Virus record (IMG/VR): IMGVR_UViG_2534681701_000013
Location: 1 to 49,536 of that record
Reading direction: 5' to 3' (one strand)
DNA length: 49,536 bases
Source of the DNA: a virus
Taxonomy: Duplodnaviria > Heunggongvirae > Uroviricota > Caudoviricetes
This document shows, piece by piece, positions 39,455-49,536 of this stretch (the first letter of the stretch is position 1; each line of letters begins with the position of its first letter). Under the pieces are notes generated by a model. That model saw nothing but the letters and a program-made list of their open reading frames with translations, was not told where the DNA came from and did not search any database. The position numbers and the translations under genes are program-made.

Positions 39455-42856
<3,402 letters not shown>

Positions 42857-42874
42857 ATTTTATAACCCAGAACG

Positions 42875-42898
42875 GGCGTCAGAAATGACGCCTTTTTT
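42875..42898 (+). terminator. Rho-independent terminator after J
   Basis: Stem GGCGTC / GACGCC with AGAAAT loop followed by TTTTTT. Confidence 0.7.
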
Positions 42899-42922: not shown

Positions 42923-43522
42923 ATGCGTAAACTTTATGCCGCCATTTTGTCCGCAGCCATTTGTCTGGCCGTATCCGGTGCGCCTGCATGGGCGTCTGAA
43001 CATCAGTCCACGCTGAGCGCTGGGTATCTTCATGCCCGGACGAACGTTCCCGGCAGTGATGATCTGAACGGGATTAACGTGAAATACCGTTATGAGTTTA
43101 CGGACACACTGGGGCTGGTTACGTCATTCAGCTATGCAGGAGACAAGAATCGCCAGCTGACCCATTACAGCGATACCCGCTGGCATGAAGATTCAGTGCG
43201 TAACCGCTGGTTCAGCGTGATGGCGGGGCCGTCTGTACGCGTGAATGAATGGTTCAGCGCGTATGCGATGGCAGGCGTGGCTTACAGCCGTGTGTCGACT
43301 TTCTCCGGGGATTATCTCCGCGTAACTGACAACAAGGGGAAAACGCACGATGTGCTGACCGGAAGTGATGACGGTTGCCACAGCAACACGTCTCTGGCGT
43401 GGGGGGCTGGCGTGCAGTTTAACCCGACCGAATCCGTGGCCATTGATATTGCTTATGAAGGCTCCGGCAGTGGCGACTGGCGCACTGACGGTTTCATCGT
43501 GGGTGTCGGTTATAAGTTCTGA
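42923..43522 (+). CDS. lom: Outer-membrane protein Lom (Ail/Lom family)
   Basis: 199 aa with signal peptide MRKLYAAILSAAICLAVSGAPAWA; matches lambda Lom. Confidence 0.9.
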   Translation: MRKLYAAILSAAICLAVSGAPAWASEHQSTLSAGYLHARTNVPGSDDLNGINVKYRYEFTDTLGLVTSFSYAGDKNRQLTHYSDTRWHEDSVRNRWFSVMAGPSVRVNEWFSAYAMAGVAYSRVSTFSGDYLRVTDNKGKTHDVLTGSDDGCHSNTSLAWGAGVQFNPTESVAIDIAYEGSGSGDWRTDGFIVGVGYKF

Positions 43523-43548: not shown

Positions 43549-43575
43549 AGCCCGCCGGTTCAGGCGGGCTTTTTT
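43549..43575 (+). terminator. Rho-independent terminator after lom
   Basis: Stem AGCCCGCC / GGCGGGCT with GGTTCA loop followed by TTTTTT. Confidence 0.75.
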
Positions 43576-43580
43576 GTGGG

Positions 43581-46500
43581 GTGAATATGGCAGTAAAGAT
43601 TTCAGGTGTACTGAAAGACGGCACAGGAAAACCGGTACAGAACTGCACAATCCAGCTGAAAGCAAAACGTAACAGCACCACGGTGGTGGTGAACACGCTG
43701 GCCTCAGAAAATTCGGATGAAGCCGGGCGTTACAGCATGGACGTTGAGTACGGTCAGTACAGCGTTATTCTGTTGGTGGAAGGATTCCCGCCGTCACATG
43801 CCGGGACCATCACCGTGTATGAAGATTCCCGACCCGGTACGCTGAATGATTTTCTCGGTGCCATGACGGAGGATGATGCCCGTCCGGAGGCTCTGCGCCG
43901 TTTTGAACTGATGGTGGAAGAGGTGGCGCGTAACGCGTCCGCGGTGGCACAGAACACGGCAGCCGCGAAGAAGTCAGCCAGTGATGCCGGCACATCTGCC
44001 CGTGAGGCGGCAACCCATGCGACTGATGCTGCAGGCTCAGCGCGTGCAGCCAGCACGTCAGCCGGACAGGCCGCGACTTCGGCTCAGGAGGCGTCTTCCA
44101 GCGCAGGAACGGCATCAACAAAGGCCACTGAAGCATCAAAAAGTGCTGCCGCTGCAGAGTCCTCAAAAAGCGCGGCGGCCACCAGTGCCGGTGCGGCGAA
44201 AACGTCAGAAACGAATGCTGCAGCGTCACAAAAATCAGCAGCCACTTCTGCATCCACTGCGACGACGAAAGCGTCAGAAGCCGCCACTTCAGCCAGAGAT
44301 GCGGCGGCCTCCAAAGAGGCGGCAAAATCATCAGAAACGAACGCCTCCACAAGCGCCAGCAGTGCAGCCTCCTCGGCAACGGCGGCAGGAAATTCCGTGA
44401 AGGCGGCAAAAACGTCCGAGACGAATGCCAGGTCTTCTGAAACGGCAGCGGAACAGAGCGCCTCAGCTGCGGCAGACTCTGAGACAGCAGCTGCATCATC
44501 GGCCCGTGAGGCGTCCATTAAGGCAGAGGAGGCAGCAGTCAGTGCCACCGCCGCCGGAAAATCGGCAGAAAGCGCCGCATCATCCGCTTCAACAGCCACA
44601 ACGAAGGCTGGCGAAGCCACTGAACAGGCCACTGCAGCAGCGAGGGCTGCTTCCGCAGCGAAGACATCCGAAACGAACGCGAAAGCGTCGGAAACCAGCG
44701 CAGAATCCTCAAAAACGGCTGCCGCATCGTCCGCCAGTTCGGCGGCGTCATCGGCATCATCTGCGTCTGCTTCAAAAGATGAGGCGACCAGACAGGCGTC
44801 AGCAGCGAAGGGCAGCGCCACGACGGCATCCACGAAGGCGACAGAGGCAGCTGGTAGTGCGACAGCGGCAGCACAGAGCAAAAGTACGGCAGAATCCGCA
44901 GCAACGCGCGCTGAGACAGCGGCAAAACGTGCAGAGGATATTGCATCCGCCGTGGCGCTTGAGGATGCGAGCACGACGAAAAAGGGGGTAGTACAGCTCA
45001 GCAGTGCGACCAACAGCACGTCTGAAACGCTGGCGGCAACGCCAAAGGCAGTAAAAGCAGCCTATGACAATGCAGAGAAACGTCTGCAGAAAGACCAGAA
45101 CGGTGCTGATATTCCCGACAAGGACCGCTTCCTGAGTAACATTAATGTTTACAGCAAAGGTGAAGTGGATCAGAAAAAGGGGATGCGATACGTTGTGGTA
45201 AATGCCCCGGCGGGTGTCCAGGAAGGTAAATATTATCCGTTAGTGATAAAAAGGAATGACAGCCATCGGGCATCCCGCGTTGTCATTTCAACGCCAAGTC
45301 GCTCAGCTAATCACAGAATGAATAATTGTGAGTTTAATGGTTTTGTTTGCGCAGGCGGCTGGACGGACCGGGGTAGCTATGCCTGTGGTATGTTCTGGGC
45401 TTATTCATCATCGGAACGCGCTATTCATTCCATTCTGATGAGTAATAAAGGCGATACCGTAGACAGCGTATTCTATATAGAAGGTGGGGCATTTCCCGTA
45501 GAGGTCTTTTTAGAAGAAGGTCTCTCCGTTACTGCACCTGCTTCTGATTATATTGTTGCTGAAACGACTTATAAATTTGGCGCAACTGATCCTTATTCTG
45601 AATCAGTTGCGGTAAATTTAATTTTAGATTTTAAACAAGGTAATGGATTTTATAGTTCGTATCCTGTTTTGAGTAAGTCAGACATTAGCGGGAATAAGAT
45701 TTACGCTAATGATGAAGTTATTGTCCGTAGTCAGAACGCGTTAAGGATGATTGCAGGTGATTACGGTGTCATATGGCGAAATGATGGAGCAAATACTTAC
45801 TTGCTCATGACTGATAAAGGCGACCAGTACGGTGGCTGGAACGGTCTTCGACCATTTGCAGTAAATAACGCAACAGGTGAAGTGACGATCAATACACCAC
45901 TTAATTCTCCTAAGGGGATTAAGGGAAATTCTGATACAGCTACGAAACTTCAGACAGCAATAAAAATATCTGGTGTTTCGTTTGATGGTTCTACTGATAT
46001 CACTTTAACCGCTGCGCATGTTGCTGCTTTTGCCAGAAGAGCAACGGATACGTATGCCGATGCGGATGGGGGCGTTCCCTGGAATGCCGAATCAGGCGCT
46101 TACAATGTCACTCGCTCTGGCGACAGCTATATTCTGGTTAACTTCTATACCGGAGTCGGAAGTTGCCGGACCTTGCAGATGAAGGCGCATTACAGAAATG
46201 GTGGTCTGTTCTACCGTTCTTCAAGAGACGGTTATGGTTTTGAGGATGACTGGGCAGAAGTTTATACCTCGAAAAATCTTCCACCAGAAAGCTACCCAGT
46301 CGGCGCACCAATCCCGTGGCCATCAGATACCGTTCCGTCTGGTTATGCCCTGATGCAGGGGCAGACTTTTGACAAATCTGCTTACCCGAAACTTGCAGCT
46401 GCTTATCCGTCAGGCGTGATCCCTGATATGCGTGGCTGGATGATTAAGGGCAAGCCCGCCAGTGATCGAGCCGTATTGTCTCAGGAACAGGACGGCATTA

Positions 46501-46934
46501 AATCACACACCCACAGCGCCAGCGTATCCAGTACGGATTTGGGGACGAAAACCACATCGTCGTTTGATTACGGCACTAAATCCACGAATAACACTGGTGC
46601 GCATACCCATAGTGTTAGCGGTACGGCTGCTTCAGCCGGTGCACATACCCATTCGATGACATTTGTTTCAGGTGGTTCCAGTGGTGCTCCGGGAAGTGGA
46701 TCACCTGATTATTCTAAATACAGTGTTAACACTTCTTCTGCAGGCGCTCATACGCACTCTGTATCGGGTACTGCTGCAAGCGCAGGTGCACACGCGCATA
46801 CTGTCGGTATTGGTGCTCATACGCACTCCGTTGCGATTGGTTCACATGGACACACCATCACCGTTAACGCTGCTGGTAACGCGGAAAACACCGTCAAAAA
46901 CATCGCATTTAACTATATTGTGAGGCTTGCATAA
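43581..46934 (+). CDS. stf: Side tail fibre Stf (1117 aa), mosaic
   Basis: N-terminus [28 protein letters not shown] and C-terminal His-rich GAHTHS repeats ending ...[22 protein letters not shown] match lambda Stf; long Ala/Ser/Thr-rich region and a non-lambda central block. Confidence 0.9.
43950..45000 (+). repeat. Low-complexity Ala/Ser/Thr-rich coding repeats within stf
   Basis: Reiterated SAAxxAAxxSETNA-like units; responsible for long artefactual ORFs in other frames on both strands. Confidence 0.8.
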
Positions 46935-47518
46935 TGGCATTCAGAATGAGTGAACAACCACGGGCCATAAAAATTTATAATCTGCTGGCCGGAACTAATG
47001 AATTTATTGGTGAAGGTGATGCATATATTCCGCCTCATACAGGTCTGCCAGCAAACAGTACCGATATTGCACCGCCAGATATTCCGGCTGGCTTCGTGGC
47101 TGTTTTCAACAGTGATGAGTCATCGTGGCATCTCGTTGAAGATCATCGGGGTAAAACGGTTTATGACGTGGCTTCCGGCGACGCGTTATTTATTTCTGAA
47201 CTCGGTCCGTTACCGGAAAATGTTACCTGGTTATCGCCGGAAGGGGAGTTTCAGAAGTGGAACGGCACAGCCTGGGTGAAGGATACGGAAGCAGAAAAAC
47301 TGTTCCGGATCCGGGAGGCGGAAGAAACAAAAAACAACCTGATGCAGGTAGCCAGTGAGCATATTGCGCCGCTTCAGGATGCTGCAGATCTGGAAATTGC
47401 AACGGAGGAAGAAATCTCGTTGCTGGAAGCATGGAAAAAGTATCGGGTATTGCTGAACCGTGTTGATACATCAACTGCACCTGATATTGAGTGGCCTACG
47501 AACCCTGTCAGGGAGTAA
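46934..47518 (+). CDS. tfa: Tail fibre assembly chaperone Tfa
   Basis: 194-aa translation [24 protein letters not shown]... matches lambda Tfa. Confidence 0.95.
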
Positions 47519-47567
47519 TCATTGGGATTATGCCGCAGCACGTCTTAAGCAAGAACGTGCTGCGGTT
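47362..47567 (+). repeat. Direct repeat copy 1 (tfa 3' end plus downstream hairpin)
   Basis: About 206 bp nearly identical to 48411-48617. Confidence 0.85.
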
Positions 47568-47572
47568 GGATG

Positions 47573-48238
47573 CTATTTTTTCCCTGAAGCGGAAAACATT
47601 ACTACAGTACCTTGAACCTTGGTTTTAACATTCTCGAAATGCTCTGAGAGTATATGTGTTAAGCCTTCTTCGGAATCTTTTGTGTTTGAAAAGATGCCTT
47701 TCTGATTGTAAATGCGCATCAGTTTTTGACCGAAGCTATTGTGCACAACTCCATCGCCAAGAATTGTGGCTCCGTATAGAGTTCCATCGTCAGTTAAGGC
47801 CTGCGCCGCATTGCGTATTACACAGCTTTTTGTAGATATATTTCCAGGCAGGCAGTGAAGAAGGTAAAACATGGAAATGGAATCAAATTGACCATGTAAC
47901 GCCGCGGGATAAGGTTCAAAAACATCATGGCTAATTTTATGTTTAATTTTTGATTCCCCAGCCCTTGTAGATGCCGCGTTCAGGCTAGCTTCGTTCAAAT
48001 CCATTAAAGATATCAGACTACTCTCAGGTACGTGAGTAAGGTAAAACCCAGTTCCAACGCCAATATCCAGATGGTTGTTACCTAAATGTTCCAGAAAGTG
48101 TGGAAGAAGGTGTTCCTTTGTAGGACATCCCCATGCAAGCCGATTTGATACTCCCAAAACCCACCAGTCATAAAGCTTTAGGGTAAGTGGTGTGTAAATT
48201 TTAGCCCCATCATCTGTGTTTTTTTTCATTAGTTTCAC
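47573..48238 (-). CDS. ybcY: Class I SAM-dependent methyltransferase (DLP12 YbcY-like)
   Basis: 221 aa; glycine-rich SAM-binding motif LDIGVGTGFY; AT-rich; opposite orientation to the tail genes. Confidence 0.85.
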   Translation of the reverse strand: MKLMKKNTDDGAKIYTPLTLKLYDWWVLGVSNRLAWGCPTKEHLLPHFLEHLGNNHLDIGVGTGFYLTHVPESSLISLMDLNEASLNAASTRAGESKIKHKISHDVFEPYPAALHGQFDSISMFYLLHCLPGNISTKSCVIRNAAQALTDDGTLYGATILGDGVVHNSFGQKLMRIYNQKGIFSNTKDSEEGLTHILSEHFENVKTKVQGTVVMFSASGKK

Positions 48239-48297
48239 CGTGTTATAGTTTTATTTGTGAATTAAATCAATTATGGCGATGAATTACAAGGGGTTAA

Positions 48298-48567
48298 ATG
48301 CTGCCGCAGCATAGCGATATTGAAATAGCCTGGTATGCTTCGATACAGCAGGAGCCGAATGGCTGGAAGACCGTCACCACACAGTTCTATATCCAGGAAT
48401 TCAGTGAGTATATTGCGCCACTGCAGGATGCTGTAGATCTGGAAATCGCAACGGAGGAAGAAAGATCGTTGCTGGAGGCATGGAATAAATATCGGGTATT
48501 GTTGAATCGTGTTGATACATCAACTGCACCTGATATTGAGTGGCCTGCAAATCCTGTCAGGGAGTAA
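48298..48567 (+). pseudogene. Tail fibre assembly gene fragment (Tfa C-terminal remnant, tfaX-like)
   Basis: 89-aa ORF whose last 50 residues ([18 protein letters not shown]...[15 protein letters not shown]) duplicate the Tfa C-terminus; N-terminal part unrelated. Confidence 0.6.
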
Positions 48568-48617
48568 TCATTGGGATTATGCCGCAGACACGTCGTATGC
48601 AGGAACGTGCTGCGGTT
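48411..48617 (+). repeat. Direct repeat copy 2 (tfa 3' end plus hairpin)
   Basis: Near-identical to 47362-47567 with a few substitutions and a 1-bp indel in the hairpin. Confidence 0.85.
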
Positions 48618-48681
48618 AGTTTGTGAGCTTTCGATAGTGGTTGTTATTTTTGCCCTTATTTGTTCCGGAGGCCATGGTTCA

Positions 48682-48852
48682 ATGGTCCGTCTGCCCCCTG
48701 TGGTGATGTCAGCAAAATCAGCCACTGCGCGAACCACAATAGCCCGGGAAGATGCTGAAGATCACCTGGTAAAGCTGTCAGCGCAGAAACTGGAAGAACT
48801 GCTCGCATCAATGGTTAAGGATGAGGTTGATCGCAATGATGGGATTTATTGA
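48682..48852 (+). CDS. Hypothetical small protein (56 aa)
   Basis: ATG at 48682 with GGAG 11 nt upstream; track ORF 48571..48852 in the same frame; no family recognised. Confidence 0.3.
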   Translation: MVRLPPVVMSAKSATARTTIAREDAEDHLVKLSAQKLEELLASMVKDEVDRNDGIY

Positions 48853-48978
48853 CGTCAGCGAGAGCAGAAGGAAGAACTGAATAACCTGAATGATTTACGC
48901 TCAATCAGAGCGATGGCGATTAGCGGCAATCACGCTCGATAAAATTAACCCCGGTGATCATCCGGGGTTTTGCATTCA

Positions 48979-49536
48979 TTAAAACCGCATCAACCTTTCC
49001 ACCAATTGTTCTTTACGGGCAACGATCCACCCATGTTGCTCCAGATAAAATTTAAACCGTTCCAGAGTGCATACCATCGCATCGGCGGGGACTTTTTCTG
49101 TGAACTCGACCTGACCGTGTTTATCGAAGTGGATCAGTAATGCGCAGCCATTATTTGGGGCGGGGGAGTTTTGTGCTGCAGGAGGACGTTTGTGGAGTTC
49201 TTCTTCCATTGCGTTAAATTTTTCAATGTAAGCTTCTTTTAGTCTGGCTGCTTTTTTGCCAGTAAATCCCATTACGAGGAACATGAAGCCGTCTTTTGTG
49301 ATCAGGTAGCATCGTGATTCACGTTCTGCGCCGTTGCCAATTTCGACAGTCTGAACATCGGCCGAAAAGTTGGCTGATGTAAATTCGGGAGAGCAGTCGA
49401 GTGTGTCAATCTTAGCTAAAACGTGTTTATGTTGTTTATCGAAGTAGTCGGCAACAGCTTGAGAGGTGGTAACCAGGCGACCATCTTTGAAAAAGACTTT
49501 TGGTGACTCGTTAGAAAAAGTTATAGCTGTATTCAT
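48979..49536 (-). CDS. Rha-family phage regulatory protein
   Basis: 185 aa; N-terminal pRha-like region (LVTTSQAVADYFDKQHKHVLAKIDTL); ATG start lies on the last 3 bases of the window. Confidence 0.7.
   Translation of the reverse strand: MNTAITFSNESPKVFFKDGRLVTTSQAVADYFDKQHKHVLAKIDTLDCSPEFTSANFSADVQTVEIGNGAERESRCYLITKDGFMFLVMGFTGKKAARLKEAYIEKFNAMEEELHKRPPAAQNSPAPNNGCALLIHFDKHGQVEFTEKVPADAMVCTLERFKFYLEQHGWIVARKEQLVERLMRF

What the first reader, a model, noticed from the sequence alone, without database searches (positions are those of the whole stretch)
43950..46260. Mosaic side tail fibre: lambda-type ends around a foreign central module and a long low-complexity tract
Stf is 1117 aa here. 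The N-terminal region and the C-terminal His-rich GAHTHS repeat domain are lambda-like. The centre (roughly 45100-46260, lower GC) is a different sequence (…[24 protein letters not shown]…[37 protein letters not shown]) that I do not recognise as lambda. An exchanged receptor-recognition or depolymerase-like module would change host range. The preceding Ala/Ser/Thr-rich repeats create several long spurious ORFs on both strands.
Basis: partly seen in the sequence, partly recalled or inferred. Interest (0 to 1): 0.45.

Follow-up and report, generated by a model that had tools for sequence, protein, structure and literature searches.

The report
Rac StfR-type lambdoid side tail fibre
This is an intact copy of a long side tail fibre gene already known from the E. 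coli K-12 Rac prophage (StfR type) and many other E. coli prophages. Its middle differs from phage lambda's because it is built from shaft modules shared with phages Mu, T4 and others, so the finding is ordinary.

Summary
The ORF is real: 43581..46934 (+), 1117 aa from GTG, more likely 1115 aa from ATG 43587. It lies in the lambda order J-lom-stf-tfa.

The N-terminus and C-terminal tip match lambda Stf, and residues 495-905 match no frame of lambda stf (best E 0.85).

It is not an unusual mosaic:
- The protein is colinear end to end with K-12 Rac StfR (83.7% aa) and phage Turner's fibre (94.5%).
- The exact 1115-aa sequence is already in NCBI/UniRef.
- 140 complete E. coli genomes carry the gene over at least 80% of its length.

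The "low-complexity tract" is an unbroken run of 49 Ala-core heptads, the proximal coiled-coil shaft (about 34 heptads in lambda).

The centre is a chain of fibre modules: a Mu gpS-like segment, a beta-sandwich knob shared with other phages' tail fibres, a T4 gp34 beta-helix/P4-prism segment, and a second Mu gpS-like segment. I found no depolymerase signature.

The receptor-binding part, by homology, is the C-terminal T4 gp37-like tip with seven HxH motifs. Its head-equivalent block (aa 1026-1052) is a second variable cassette and lies outside the finding's coordinates.

Verdict: already known, low interest.

The parts
43581..46934 (+). stf, the side tail fibre gene. 1117 aa from GTG 43581; probable true start ATG 43587, giving 1115 aa. 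Stop codon included.
   Evidence: ORF list. Full-length colinear alignment to K-12 StfR (83.7%) and phage Turner (94.5%). The exact 1115-aa protein is in NCBI/UniRef. Start-site sequence and PGAP annotation of the ET474 homologue.
43587..43868 (+). N-terminal tail-attachment (collar) domain, aa 3-96.
   Evidence: Pfam PF08400 phage_tail_N covers 3-136, E 5e-71. PDB 9e7m/9mgh, the Ur-lambda Stf collar domain, matches 3-96 at E 2.5e-50. The role of gpStfN 1-91 is described in PMC12617516.
43935..44963 (+). Proximal coiled-coil shaft: 49 uninterrupted heptads, aa 119-461, with Ala at a and d and Ser at g. It is the source of the overlapping stop-free ORFs on both strands.
   Evidence: Self-identity peaks at lags 7, 14, 21 and onward to 56 (0.35-0.39 against about 0.15-0.2 elsewhere). 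Register table: d = Ala in 47 of 49, a = Ala in 34 of 50, g = Ser in 35 of 49. Same length in StfR and Turner; about 34 heptads in lambda. Ur-lambda's 'proximal coiled-coil domain' is described in PMC12617516. Overlapping ORFs and lambda orf206b.
44964..45152 (+). Junction segment, aa 462-524 (…[26 protein letters not shown]…QNGADIPDK…), Mu gpS-like. Lambda homology ends inside it, at about nt 45060.
   Evidence: PDB 5yvq/8ju3 (Mu tail fibre S) residues 91-173 match aa 443-524. Lambda orf-401 alignment ends at aa 501.
45117..45995 (+). Central variable cassette as defined against K-12 stfR. Nucleotide identity is 0.43-0.67 here and 0.9-1.0 on either side. GC3 is low. It contains the two modules listed next.
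   Evidence: Windowed nucleotide identity and amino-acid identity. GC3 0.35-0.36. Allele classes at about 78, 74, 70, 62 and 50% identity in E. coli proteins.
45177..45680 (+). Beta-sandwich 'knob' domain, aa 533-700 ([24 protein letters not shown]…). Function unassigned. It recurs as an internal module in long tail fibres of unrelated phages.
45687..45962 (+). T4 gp34-like segment, aa 703-794: triple beta-helix plus P4 beta-prism.
   Evidence: Pfam PF21446 Gp34_trimer covers 657-760, E 3.6e-30. PDB 4uxe, 5nxf and 9x3r: gp34 residues 1034-1119 match aa 703-794, E about 1e-18. About 55% identity to T-even gp34. Domain map of gp34 from PMC5537660.
46020..46283 (+). Second Mu gpS-like segment, aa 814-901 (…[37 protein letters not shown]). 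It is 92-100% identical to K-12 StfR.
   Evidence: PDB 8ju3 residues 322-415 match aa 814-908. Identity to StfR.
46284..46931 (+). Receptor-binding tip, aa 902-1117. It is T4 gp37 tip-like and has a collar domain and seven HxH motifs (the GAHTHS repeats).
   Evidence: PDB 2xgf (gp37 tip) at E 5.4e-86. Pfam Collar 908-955 and Phage_fiber. Identity: 68% T4 gp37, 76% lambda, 88% StfR and Turner, 100% E. coli ET474. HxH positions.
46656..46736 (+). Tip hypervariable block, aa 1026-1052 ([27 protein letters not shown]). It aligns to T4 gp37 residues 932-961, the distal head domain, and is the likeliest specificity determinant.
   Evidence: Multiple alignment. Coordinate mapping. Nucleotide identity to stfR 0.52-0.68 over 46626-46793. 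T4 host-range mutations at gp37 938-955 lie in the head domain (PMC5221442).
46934..47518 (+). tfa, the tail fibre assembly chaperone, 194 aa. Its start overlaps the stf stop codon.
   Evidence: Pfam PF02413 Caudo_TAP, E 3.8e-44. 97% identical to TfaR and 94% to lambda Tfa.
42923..43522 (+). lom, an Ail/Lom outer-membrane protein gene. It lies between J and stf as in lambda and is bracketed by terminator-like hairpins at 42874-42893 and 43549-43570.
   Evidence: Pfam PF06316, E 1e-120. Terminator scan. Sequence.

Best explanation
The gene encodes a Rac StfR-type side tail fibre of an apparently complete lambda-like E. coli prophage.

Proposed mechanism (inferred from homologues, not tested here):
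- Three chains trimerise with help from the Tfa chaperone encoded immediately downstream.
- The N-terminal domain (aa 3-96) docks the fibre on the tail, as the equivalent domain does in Ur-lambda's collar of four fibre trimers.
- A 49-heptad alanine-core coiled coil (aa 119-461, about 50 nm) forms the proximal shaft, 15 heptads longer than lambda's.
- The 'foreign centre' (aa about 495-903) extends the distal shaft. It is a string of trimeric fibre modules also found in Mu gpS, T4 gp34 and T5-like, rV5-like and Aeromonas T4-like phage fibres.
- The C-terminal T4 gp37-like needle, held by seven HxH metal sites, presents a small head block (aa 1026-1052) that contacts the receptor. For lambda Stf and T4 gp37 that receptor is OmpC and/or the LPS core.

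Within the StfR family two cassettes vary and assort independently: the central block (nt 45117-45995) and the tip head block (nt 46626-46793).

What is shown: gene structure, colinearity, module homologies, the heptad register, cassette boundaries and database occurrence. What is inferred: trimerisation, fibre length, metal binding, receptor identity, and the structural (non-binding) role of the centre.
For: - Gene order J-lom-stf-tfa, in a window with lambda-sized structural ORFs.
- Full-length colinear alignment to K-12 StfR (83.7%) and Turner (94.5%).
- 140 complete E. coli genomes carry at least 80% of the gene, best 97.7% nucleotide identity; phages Turner and PhiR30_1 are about 96%.
- The exact protein is in NCBI/UniRef on 17 contigs.
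- Heptad register and the published Ur-lambda fibre anatomy.
- PDB and Pfam module assignments, with the gp34 segment mapped to beta-helix plus P4 prism.
- The beta-sandwich module occurs inside other phages' fibres.
- Tip alignment to gp37 with seven HxH motifs. The variable block coincides with the gp37 head, where host-range mutations map.
- Independent assortment: Turner and PhiR30_1 share the centre (about 100%) but have tips only 85% and 71% identical. ET474 shares both.
- Tfa is 94-97% identical to lambda Tfa and TfaR.
Against: - Nothing here tests function. The receptor is unknown, and the tip head block differs from those of lambda, T4 and StfR.
- The central cassette is strongly diversified between alleles (40-68% aa identity) while its flanks are 95-100% identical. 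That pattern is more typical of host-interacting surfaces than of inert shaft.
- The monomer AF2 model of the whole centre was poor (pLDDT 45). The trimeric architecture of the centre rests on sequence homology only.
- In the Vibrio phage phi 3 fibre the homologous beta-sandwich sits fairly distally (aa 1029-1182 of 1484).
Confidence: 0.85

Rival explanations
1. The central cassette, in particular the beta-sandwich knob at aa 533-700, is a second lateral adhesin that binds a surface glycan (O-antigen or LPS core). Exchange of the centre would then change host range.
For: - Sharp cassette boundaries with 40-68% aa identity to StfR between 95-100% flanks, and several allele classes in E. coli.
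- Distinct GC3, indicating import.
- Weak fold resemblance to galectin, CBM32 and GH32 C-terminal beta-sandwiches.
- A homologous domain lies distally in the phi 3 fibre and in Aeromonas phiAS4 gp37.
Against: - In FV3 the domain sits mid-fibre (aa 594-798 of 1266), far from the distal end.
- The adjoining half of the cassette is gp34 shaft.
- A complete gp37-type receptor-binding tip is present at the C-terminus, with its own variable block.
Confidence: 0.12
2. The centre is a depolymerase or tailspike-like enzymatic module.
Against: - No Pfam enzyme family was found. The only Pfam hits are phage_tail_N, Gp34_trimer, Collar and Phage_fiber.
- No right-handed beta-helix in either model; the domain is a 160-residue beta-sandwich.
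- PHROG hits are all 'tail fiber protein' or unknown.
- About 400 aa, split into four short modules, leaves no room for a typical catalytic beta-helix.
Confidence: 0.02
3. The gene is an inert relic of a defective prophage, as stfR is in cryptic Rac, and makes no functional fibre.
For: - K-12 stfR sits in a cryptic prophage.
- Lambda PaPa shows that stf is dispensable and easily lost.
- The tfa-distal region shows rearrangement scars.
Against: - The ORF is intact over 3.3 kb despite a recombination-prone repeat tract.
- Tfa is intact and the genes overlap at the stop and start codons.
- The window carries ORFs of lambda-like sizes in lambda order from integrase to tfa.
- The plaque-forming phages Turner and PhiR30_1 carry 94-96% identical genes.
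Confidence: 0.08

Closest known systems
StfR, the side tail fibre homologue of the E. coli K-12 Rac prophage (b1372, NP_415890.2, 1120 aa)
   Same: - Colinear over the full length at 83.7% aa identity.
- Same N-terminal domain, the same 49-heptad coiled coil and the same module order.
- The same second Mu-S-like segment and gp37-like tip.
- A Tfa that is 97% identical.
   Different: - Two blocks are divergent alleles: the central cassette at nt 45117-45995 (40-68% aa identity) and the tip head block at nt 46626-46793.
- Rac has pinR downstream. Here a methyltransferase gene and a tfa fragment follow instead.
Tail fibre proteins of Escherichia phages Turner (PP925837.1) and PhiR30_1 (PV340558.1), and WP_370605902.1 of E. 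coli ET474
   Same: - Turner: 94.5% aa overall, and 90-100% in the windows spanning the central cassette.
- PhiR30_1: centre 99.6% identical.
- ET474: 97.9% overall, with an identical centre and tip and the same downstream genes.
   Different: - The Turner and PhiR30_1 tips are only 85% and 71% identical, so they carry a different head block.
- Every ET474 difference lies between aa 45 and 470, mostly in the coiled coil.
Ur-lambda Stf (774 aa; split into orf-401 and orf-314 in lambda PaPa)
   Same: - Position after J and lom.
- N-terminal collar domain, Ala-rich proximal coiled coil, gp37-like His-rich tip, and the Tfa chaperone.
   Different: - Lambda has about 34 heptads rather than 49.
- Lambda's centre, about 130 aa, is unrelated to the roughly 400-aa centre here.
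- Lambda's tip carries extra insertions.
T4 long tail fibre proteins gp37 (distal tip, PDB 2xgf) and gp34 (proximal, PDB 4uxe and 5nxh)
   Same: - The tip at aa 902-1117 is 68% identical to the gp37 tip and keeps the spacing of the seven HxH motifs.
- aa 703-794 is about 55% identical to gp34 1034-1119, the beta-helix plus P4 prism.
   Different: - Only modules are shared.
- In T4 they belong to two separate proteins of a jointed fibre on a contractile-tail baseplate. Here they are fused into one polypeptide on a siphovirus tail.
Phage Mu tail fibre gpS (PDB 5yvq, 8ju3)
   Same: Two segments are homologous: aa 443-524 to S 91-173, and aa 814-908 to S 322-415.
   Different: - Mu's fibre gene has an invertible C-terminal part, with Gin and the G segment (from general knowledge).
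- Here no invertase ORF was seen, and no inverted repeats were found in 46900-48900.
- The N-terminal attachment domain and the tip both differ.

Membership tests
Lambdoid side tail fibre, Stf/StfR family | N-terminal 'prophage tail fibre N-terminal' domain (PF08400), the collar and attachment domain of lambda Stf | tested here: met
   PF08400 covers 3-136, E 5e-71, 237 bits against a cut-off of 26.6. PDB 9e7m matches 3-96 at E 2.5e-50.
Lambdoid side tail fibre, Stf/StfR family | Gene position downstream of J and lom, immediately followed by a Caudo_TAP (Tfa) chaperone gene | tested here: met
   J 39458-42856, lom 42923-43522, stf 43581-46934, tfa 46934-47518.
Lambdoid side tail fibre, Stf/StfR family | Long Ala-rich heptad coiled-coil shaft after the N-terminal domain | tested here: met
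   49 uninterrupted heptads at aa 119-461. Lambda has about 34. Published anatomy of the Ur-lambda fibre.
Lambdoid side tail fibre, Stf/StfR family | C-terminal gp37-like tip with collar domain and HxH repeats | tested here: met
   PDB 2xgf at E 5.4e-86; Pfam Collar and Phage_fiber; seven HxH motifs.
Lambdoid side tail fibre, Stf/StfR family | Colinearity with StfR across the centre (the StfR subtype as opposed to the lambda subtype) | tested here: met
   One alignment covers aa 3-1117 against StfR 1-1120 with a handful of gaps. The centre is homologous at 40-68% identity.
Lambdoid side tail fibre, Stf/StfR family | Assembly into four trimeric fibres on the virion, and acceleration of adsorption | not testable with these tools
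   Needs electron microscopy and adsorption assays.
Tailspike or depolymerase receptor-destroying proteins | Catalytic domain, typically a right-handed parallel beta-helix, or a recognised glycanase, lyase or esterase family | tested here: not met
Invertible (shufflon-type) tail fibre loci: Mu G, P1 C, e14 P | Adjacent Gin/Pin/Cin-family invertase, inverted crossover sites, and an alternative, oppositely oriented fibre C-terminus plus tfa | tested here: not met
   Downstream ORFs are a SAM methyltransferase, a same-strand tfa fragment and a Rha-family gene. No inverted repeats of 20 nt or more in 46900-48900. Turner and Rac do carry an invertase downstream.
T4 gp34 (long tail fibre proximal subunit) | Full gp34 architecture: N-terminal baseplate attachment, P1-P5 domains, about 1289 aa | tested here: not met
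   Only gp34 residues 1034-1119 are matched. A module is shared; this is not family membership.

The most novel reading that the evidence does not exclude
The StfR-type fibre may be a two-site adhesin. The central cassette (beta-sandwich knob plus gp34-like prism, nt 45117-45995) would bind a surface glycan independently of the gp37-like tip. The two cassettes would then recombine separately to produce combinatorial host ranges among E. coli lambdoid prophages.

The evidence does not exclude this: sharp cassette boundaries, several allele classes, a different GC3, and independent assortment from the tip. It does not show binding either.
Probability: 0.12. Interest if true: 0.45.

Novelty: already known. 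Interest (0 to 1): 0.12.

Why it matters
It matters little beyond correct annotation.
- The gene should be labelled an StfR-type side tail fibre, not a lambda Stf with an unusual insert.
- The overlapping ORFs in the Ala-rich tract should not be called as genes.
- For phage engineering or host-range prediction, homology places the primary specificity determinant in the small head block of the gp37-like tip (46656-46736), not in the centre.
- The StfR family offers two naturally exchangeable cassettes with sharp boundaries (45117/45995 and 46626/46793).
- The function of the beta-sandwich knob, shared by several unrelated phage groups, remains open but is a modest question.

Tried and rejected
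- AF2 monomer model of the whole centre (aa 501-905): mean pLDDT 45, unusable except for one domain. Foldseek on it returned gp34 and Mu S at TM about 0.13, which adds nothing beyond the sequence hits.
- Tandem Repeats Finder on the gene: no DNA-level tandem array explains the tract. The periodicity is at protein level.
- Literature: a search for StfR plus 'side tail fiber' returned three papers, and the one I read uses stfR as a recombination target rather than studying its function. A search for the PhiR30/ECOR phage source paper found nothing useful. Bartual et al. 2010 (PMC2996694) is not held, so the head-domain mapping relies on PMC5221442.
- Invertible-segment idea: rejected. There is no invertase and there are no inverted repeats.
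- 'Low GC is only a composition effect of the Ala tract': rejected, because GC3 also drops to 0.35.
- Not run: the large representative-protein search, the metagenome and genome contig scans, and the RNA tools. They were not needed for the question.
Full report
OBSERVATION

The window carries an ORF at 43581..46934 (+) that reads as 1117 aa from a GTG. It is preceded by J (39458-42856) and lom (42923-43522) and followed by tfa (46934-47518). Pfam confirms Ail/Lom for lom and Caudo_TAP for tfa.

The rest of the window has ORFs of lambda-like sizes in lambda order, from an integrase-side end to the tail genes. The context is therefore a lambda-like prophage.

The true start is probably the ATG at 43587:
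- Lambda Stf, StfR and Turner all begin MAVKISG.
- PGAP starts the ET474 homologue at that codon.
- A purine-rich GTGGGGTGAAT precedes it.

That gives 1115 aa.

- N-terminus: aa 3-383 is 75.6% identical to lambda orf-401.
- C-terminus: aa 904-1117 is 66% identical by BLAST to orf-314, 76% over aligned columns.
- Centre: aa 495-905 finds nothing in any frame of the lambda stf region, best E 0.85.
- GC falls to 0.38-0.48 in the centre.
- Six ORFs of 100-311 aa overlap the Ala-rich tract on both strands.

The lambda record annotates an ORF of the same kind, orf206b, on the minus strand inside orf-401.

WHAT IT IS

The protein aligns over its whole length to K-12 StfR (1120 aa) at 83.7% identity and to the fibre of the plaque-forming phage Turner at 94.5%.

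In 40-residue windows, identity to StfR is mostly 93-100%, with three exceptions:
- a dip to 0.72 at aa 281-320, inside the coiled coil;
- aa 521-797, at 40-68%;
- aa 998-1072, at 62-68%.

At nucleotide level the boundaries of the last two blocks are sharp, at 45117/45995 and 46626/46793.

Turner is 90-100% identical across the central block, and PhiR30_1 is 99.6% identical there.

The gene is common in public data:
- 140 complete E. coli genomes hold at least 80% of it, best 97.7% nucleotide identity.
- The centre has 1292 database relatives, including 100%-identical E. coli proteins.
- The exact 1115-aa protein is already in NCBI/UniRef (for example HAH9702863.1 and UPI0003EDCE64) on 17 contigs.

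ANATOMY

(i) aa 3-96 is the tail-attachment domain: PF08400 and PDB 9e7m/9mgh, the Ur-lambda side-fibre collar.

(ii) aa 119-461, the 'low-complexity tract', is a perfect heptad repeat.
- Self-identity peaks at every multiple of 7.
- In a single register over 49 heptads, position d is Ala in 47 of 49, a is Ala in 34 of 50, and g is Ser in 35 of 49.
- This corresponds to the 'proximal coiled-coil domain' described for Ur-lambda gpStf (PMC12617516).
- StfR and Turner also have 49 heptads. Lambda has about 34.
- Alanine GCN codons explain the 0.6 GC (GC2 = 0.77). I infer that they also explain the stop-free alternative frames.

(iii) aa 443-524 matches Mu gpS residues 91-173. It contains the [19 protein letters not shown] motif at which lambda homology ends.

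(iv) aa 533-700 is an all-beta domain.
- Modelled alone, it reaches pLDDT 77 and pTM 0.80.
- It has 27-40% identical counterparts inside long fibres of the T5-like Vibrio phage phi 3 (aa 1029-1182 of 1484), rV5-like FV3 (about aa 594-798 of 1266), Salmonella Stp1, Aeromonas phages and Campylobacter phages.
- It matches predicted tail-fibre structures in BFVD at TM 0.67-0.80.

(v) aa 703-794 matches T4 gp34 residues 1034-1119 (about 55% identity). By the published domain map this is triple beta-helix plus the P4 beta-prism, which is shaft (PMC5537660).

(vi) aa 814-908 matches Mu gpS 322-415.

(vii) aa 902-1117 matches the T4 gp37 receptor-binding tip (PDB 2xgf, E 5.4e-86).
- It has seven HxH motifs.
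- It is 68% identical to gp37, 76% to lambda, 88% to StfR and Turner, and 100% to ET474.

COMPOSITION AND CASSETTES

GC3 is 0.35-0.36 in modules (iv) and (v). It is 0.52-0.59 upstream and 0.44-0.46 downstream. The central cassette therefore has a genuinely different composition, consistent with import from an AT-richer phage gene pool.

The cassette exists as several allele classes in E. coli, at about 78, 74, 70, 62 and 50% identity.

The second variable block, aa 1026-1052, aligns to gp37 932-961. This is the distal head domain, where the T4 host-range and adsorption mutations G938V, T939I, V941E, G943S, Y953 and A955E lie (PMC5221442).

Centre and tip alleles assort independently. Turner and PhiR30_1 share the centre but not the tip, while ET474 shares both.

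MECHANISM

This section is inference from homologues. The fibre is a Tfa-assisted trimer, attached through its N-terminal domain. It is extended by a coiled coil of about 50 nm and then by a beta-structured distal shaft with knobs. It ends in a metal-stabilised needle whose head block binds the receptor.

For lambda Stf and T4 gp37 the receptor is OmpC and/or the LPS core. For this head-block allele the receptor is unknown. By analogy with Ur-lambda, the fibre would speed up reversible adsorption before J engages its receptor.

'Mosaic relative to lambda' is right. 'Exchanged receptor-recognition or depolymerase-like module' is not supported.
- No enzyme family or beta-helix was found.
- Most of the centre that can be assigned is shaft or internal-fibre homology.
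- A complete gp37-type tip is present.

A residual possibility is that the beta-sandwich knob is a lateral glycan-binding site. The cassette's diversification keeps that alive, and I put it at about 0.12.

NOVELTY

The finding is already known. The architecture is that of StfR, the exact sequence is deposited, and near-identical genes sit in cultured phages. Interest is low.

NOT DONE

I ran no trimer modelling and no functional tests. Bartual et al. 2010 could not be read.

Noticed in passing
window 47342-48617 (repeat copies at 47342-47567 and 48391-48617): Two adjacent direct repeats, 197 nt and 29 nt (about 226 nt together, about 90% identical), cover the 3' end of tfa. They bracket a roughly 1-kb segment carrying a minus-strand class I SAM-dependent methyltransferase gene (47573-48238). 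The second copy is a same-strand Tfa C-terminal fragment (48298-48567, Caudo_TAP positions 75-130). It looks like a cargo gene inserted by recombination between tfa 3' ends. The same arrangement is present in E. coli ET474.
   Followed up: partly
window 46626-46793 (aa 1016-1071; core block 46656-46736): A second sharply bounded variable cassette lies inside the gp37-like tip, outside the finding's coordinates. It aligns to the T4 gp37 head domain, where host-range mutations map. It is more likely than the centre to set receptor specificity.
   Followed up: yes
window 43581 vs 43587: The mechanical ORF starts at a GTG, which gives 1117 aa. Homologues and PGAP start two codons later at an ATG, which gives 1115 aa and the N-terminus MAVKISG.
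   Followed up: yes
window 42874-42893 and 43549-43570: Terminator-like hairpins followed by T-runs flank lom on both sides, so lom sits as a self-contained unit between J and stf. If these terminators work, late transcription into stf would have to read through them. This rests on a consensus scan only, and the total number of hits was not above the shuffled expectation.
   Followed up: no
database cluster of the stf product: Several public copies of this protein or its fragments are named 'short-chain fatty acid transporter'. Fused or mis-called entries are named 'phage portal protein', 'terminase large subunit' or 'ClpP'. These are evident annotation errors. Many of the listed entries are marked partial, which suggests assemblies often break within this gene.
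   Followed up: no
window 43713-44990 (aa 45-470), compared with locus L005 (E. coli ET474): All 23 internal amino-acid differences from the closest complete-genome homologue fall in the N-terminal and coiled-coil part, between aa 45 and 470. Eleven of them cluster between aa 299 and 320. StfR and Turner also drop to 0.72 identity at aa 281-320. This looks like patchy gene conversion within the heptad repeats.
   Followed up: partly
window 48979-49536 (-): A Rha-family phage regulatory protein gene (PF09669) runs to the right-hand end of the window, beyond the tail-fibre region. In ET474 appY, ompT and envY follow the tfa fragment instead. The right-hand neighbourhood therefore differs between hosts.
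   Followed up: no
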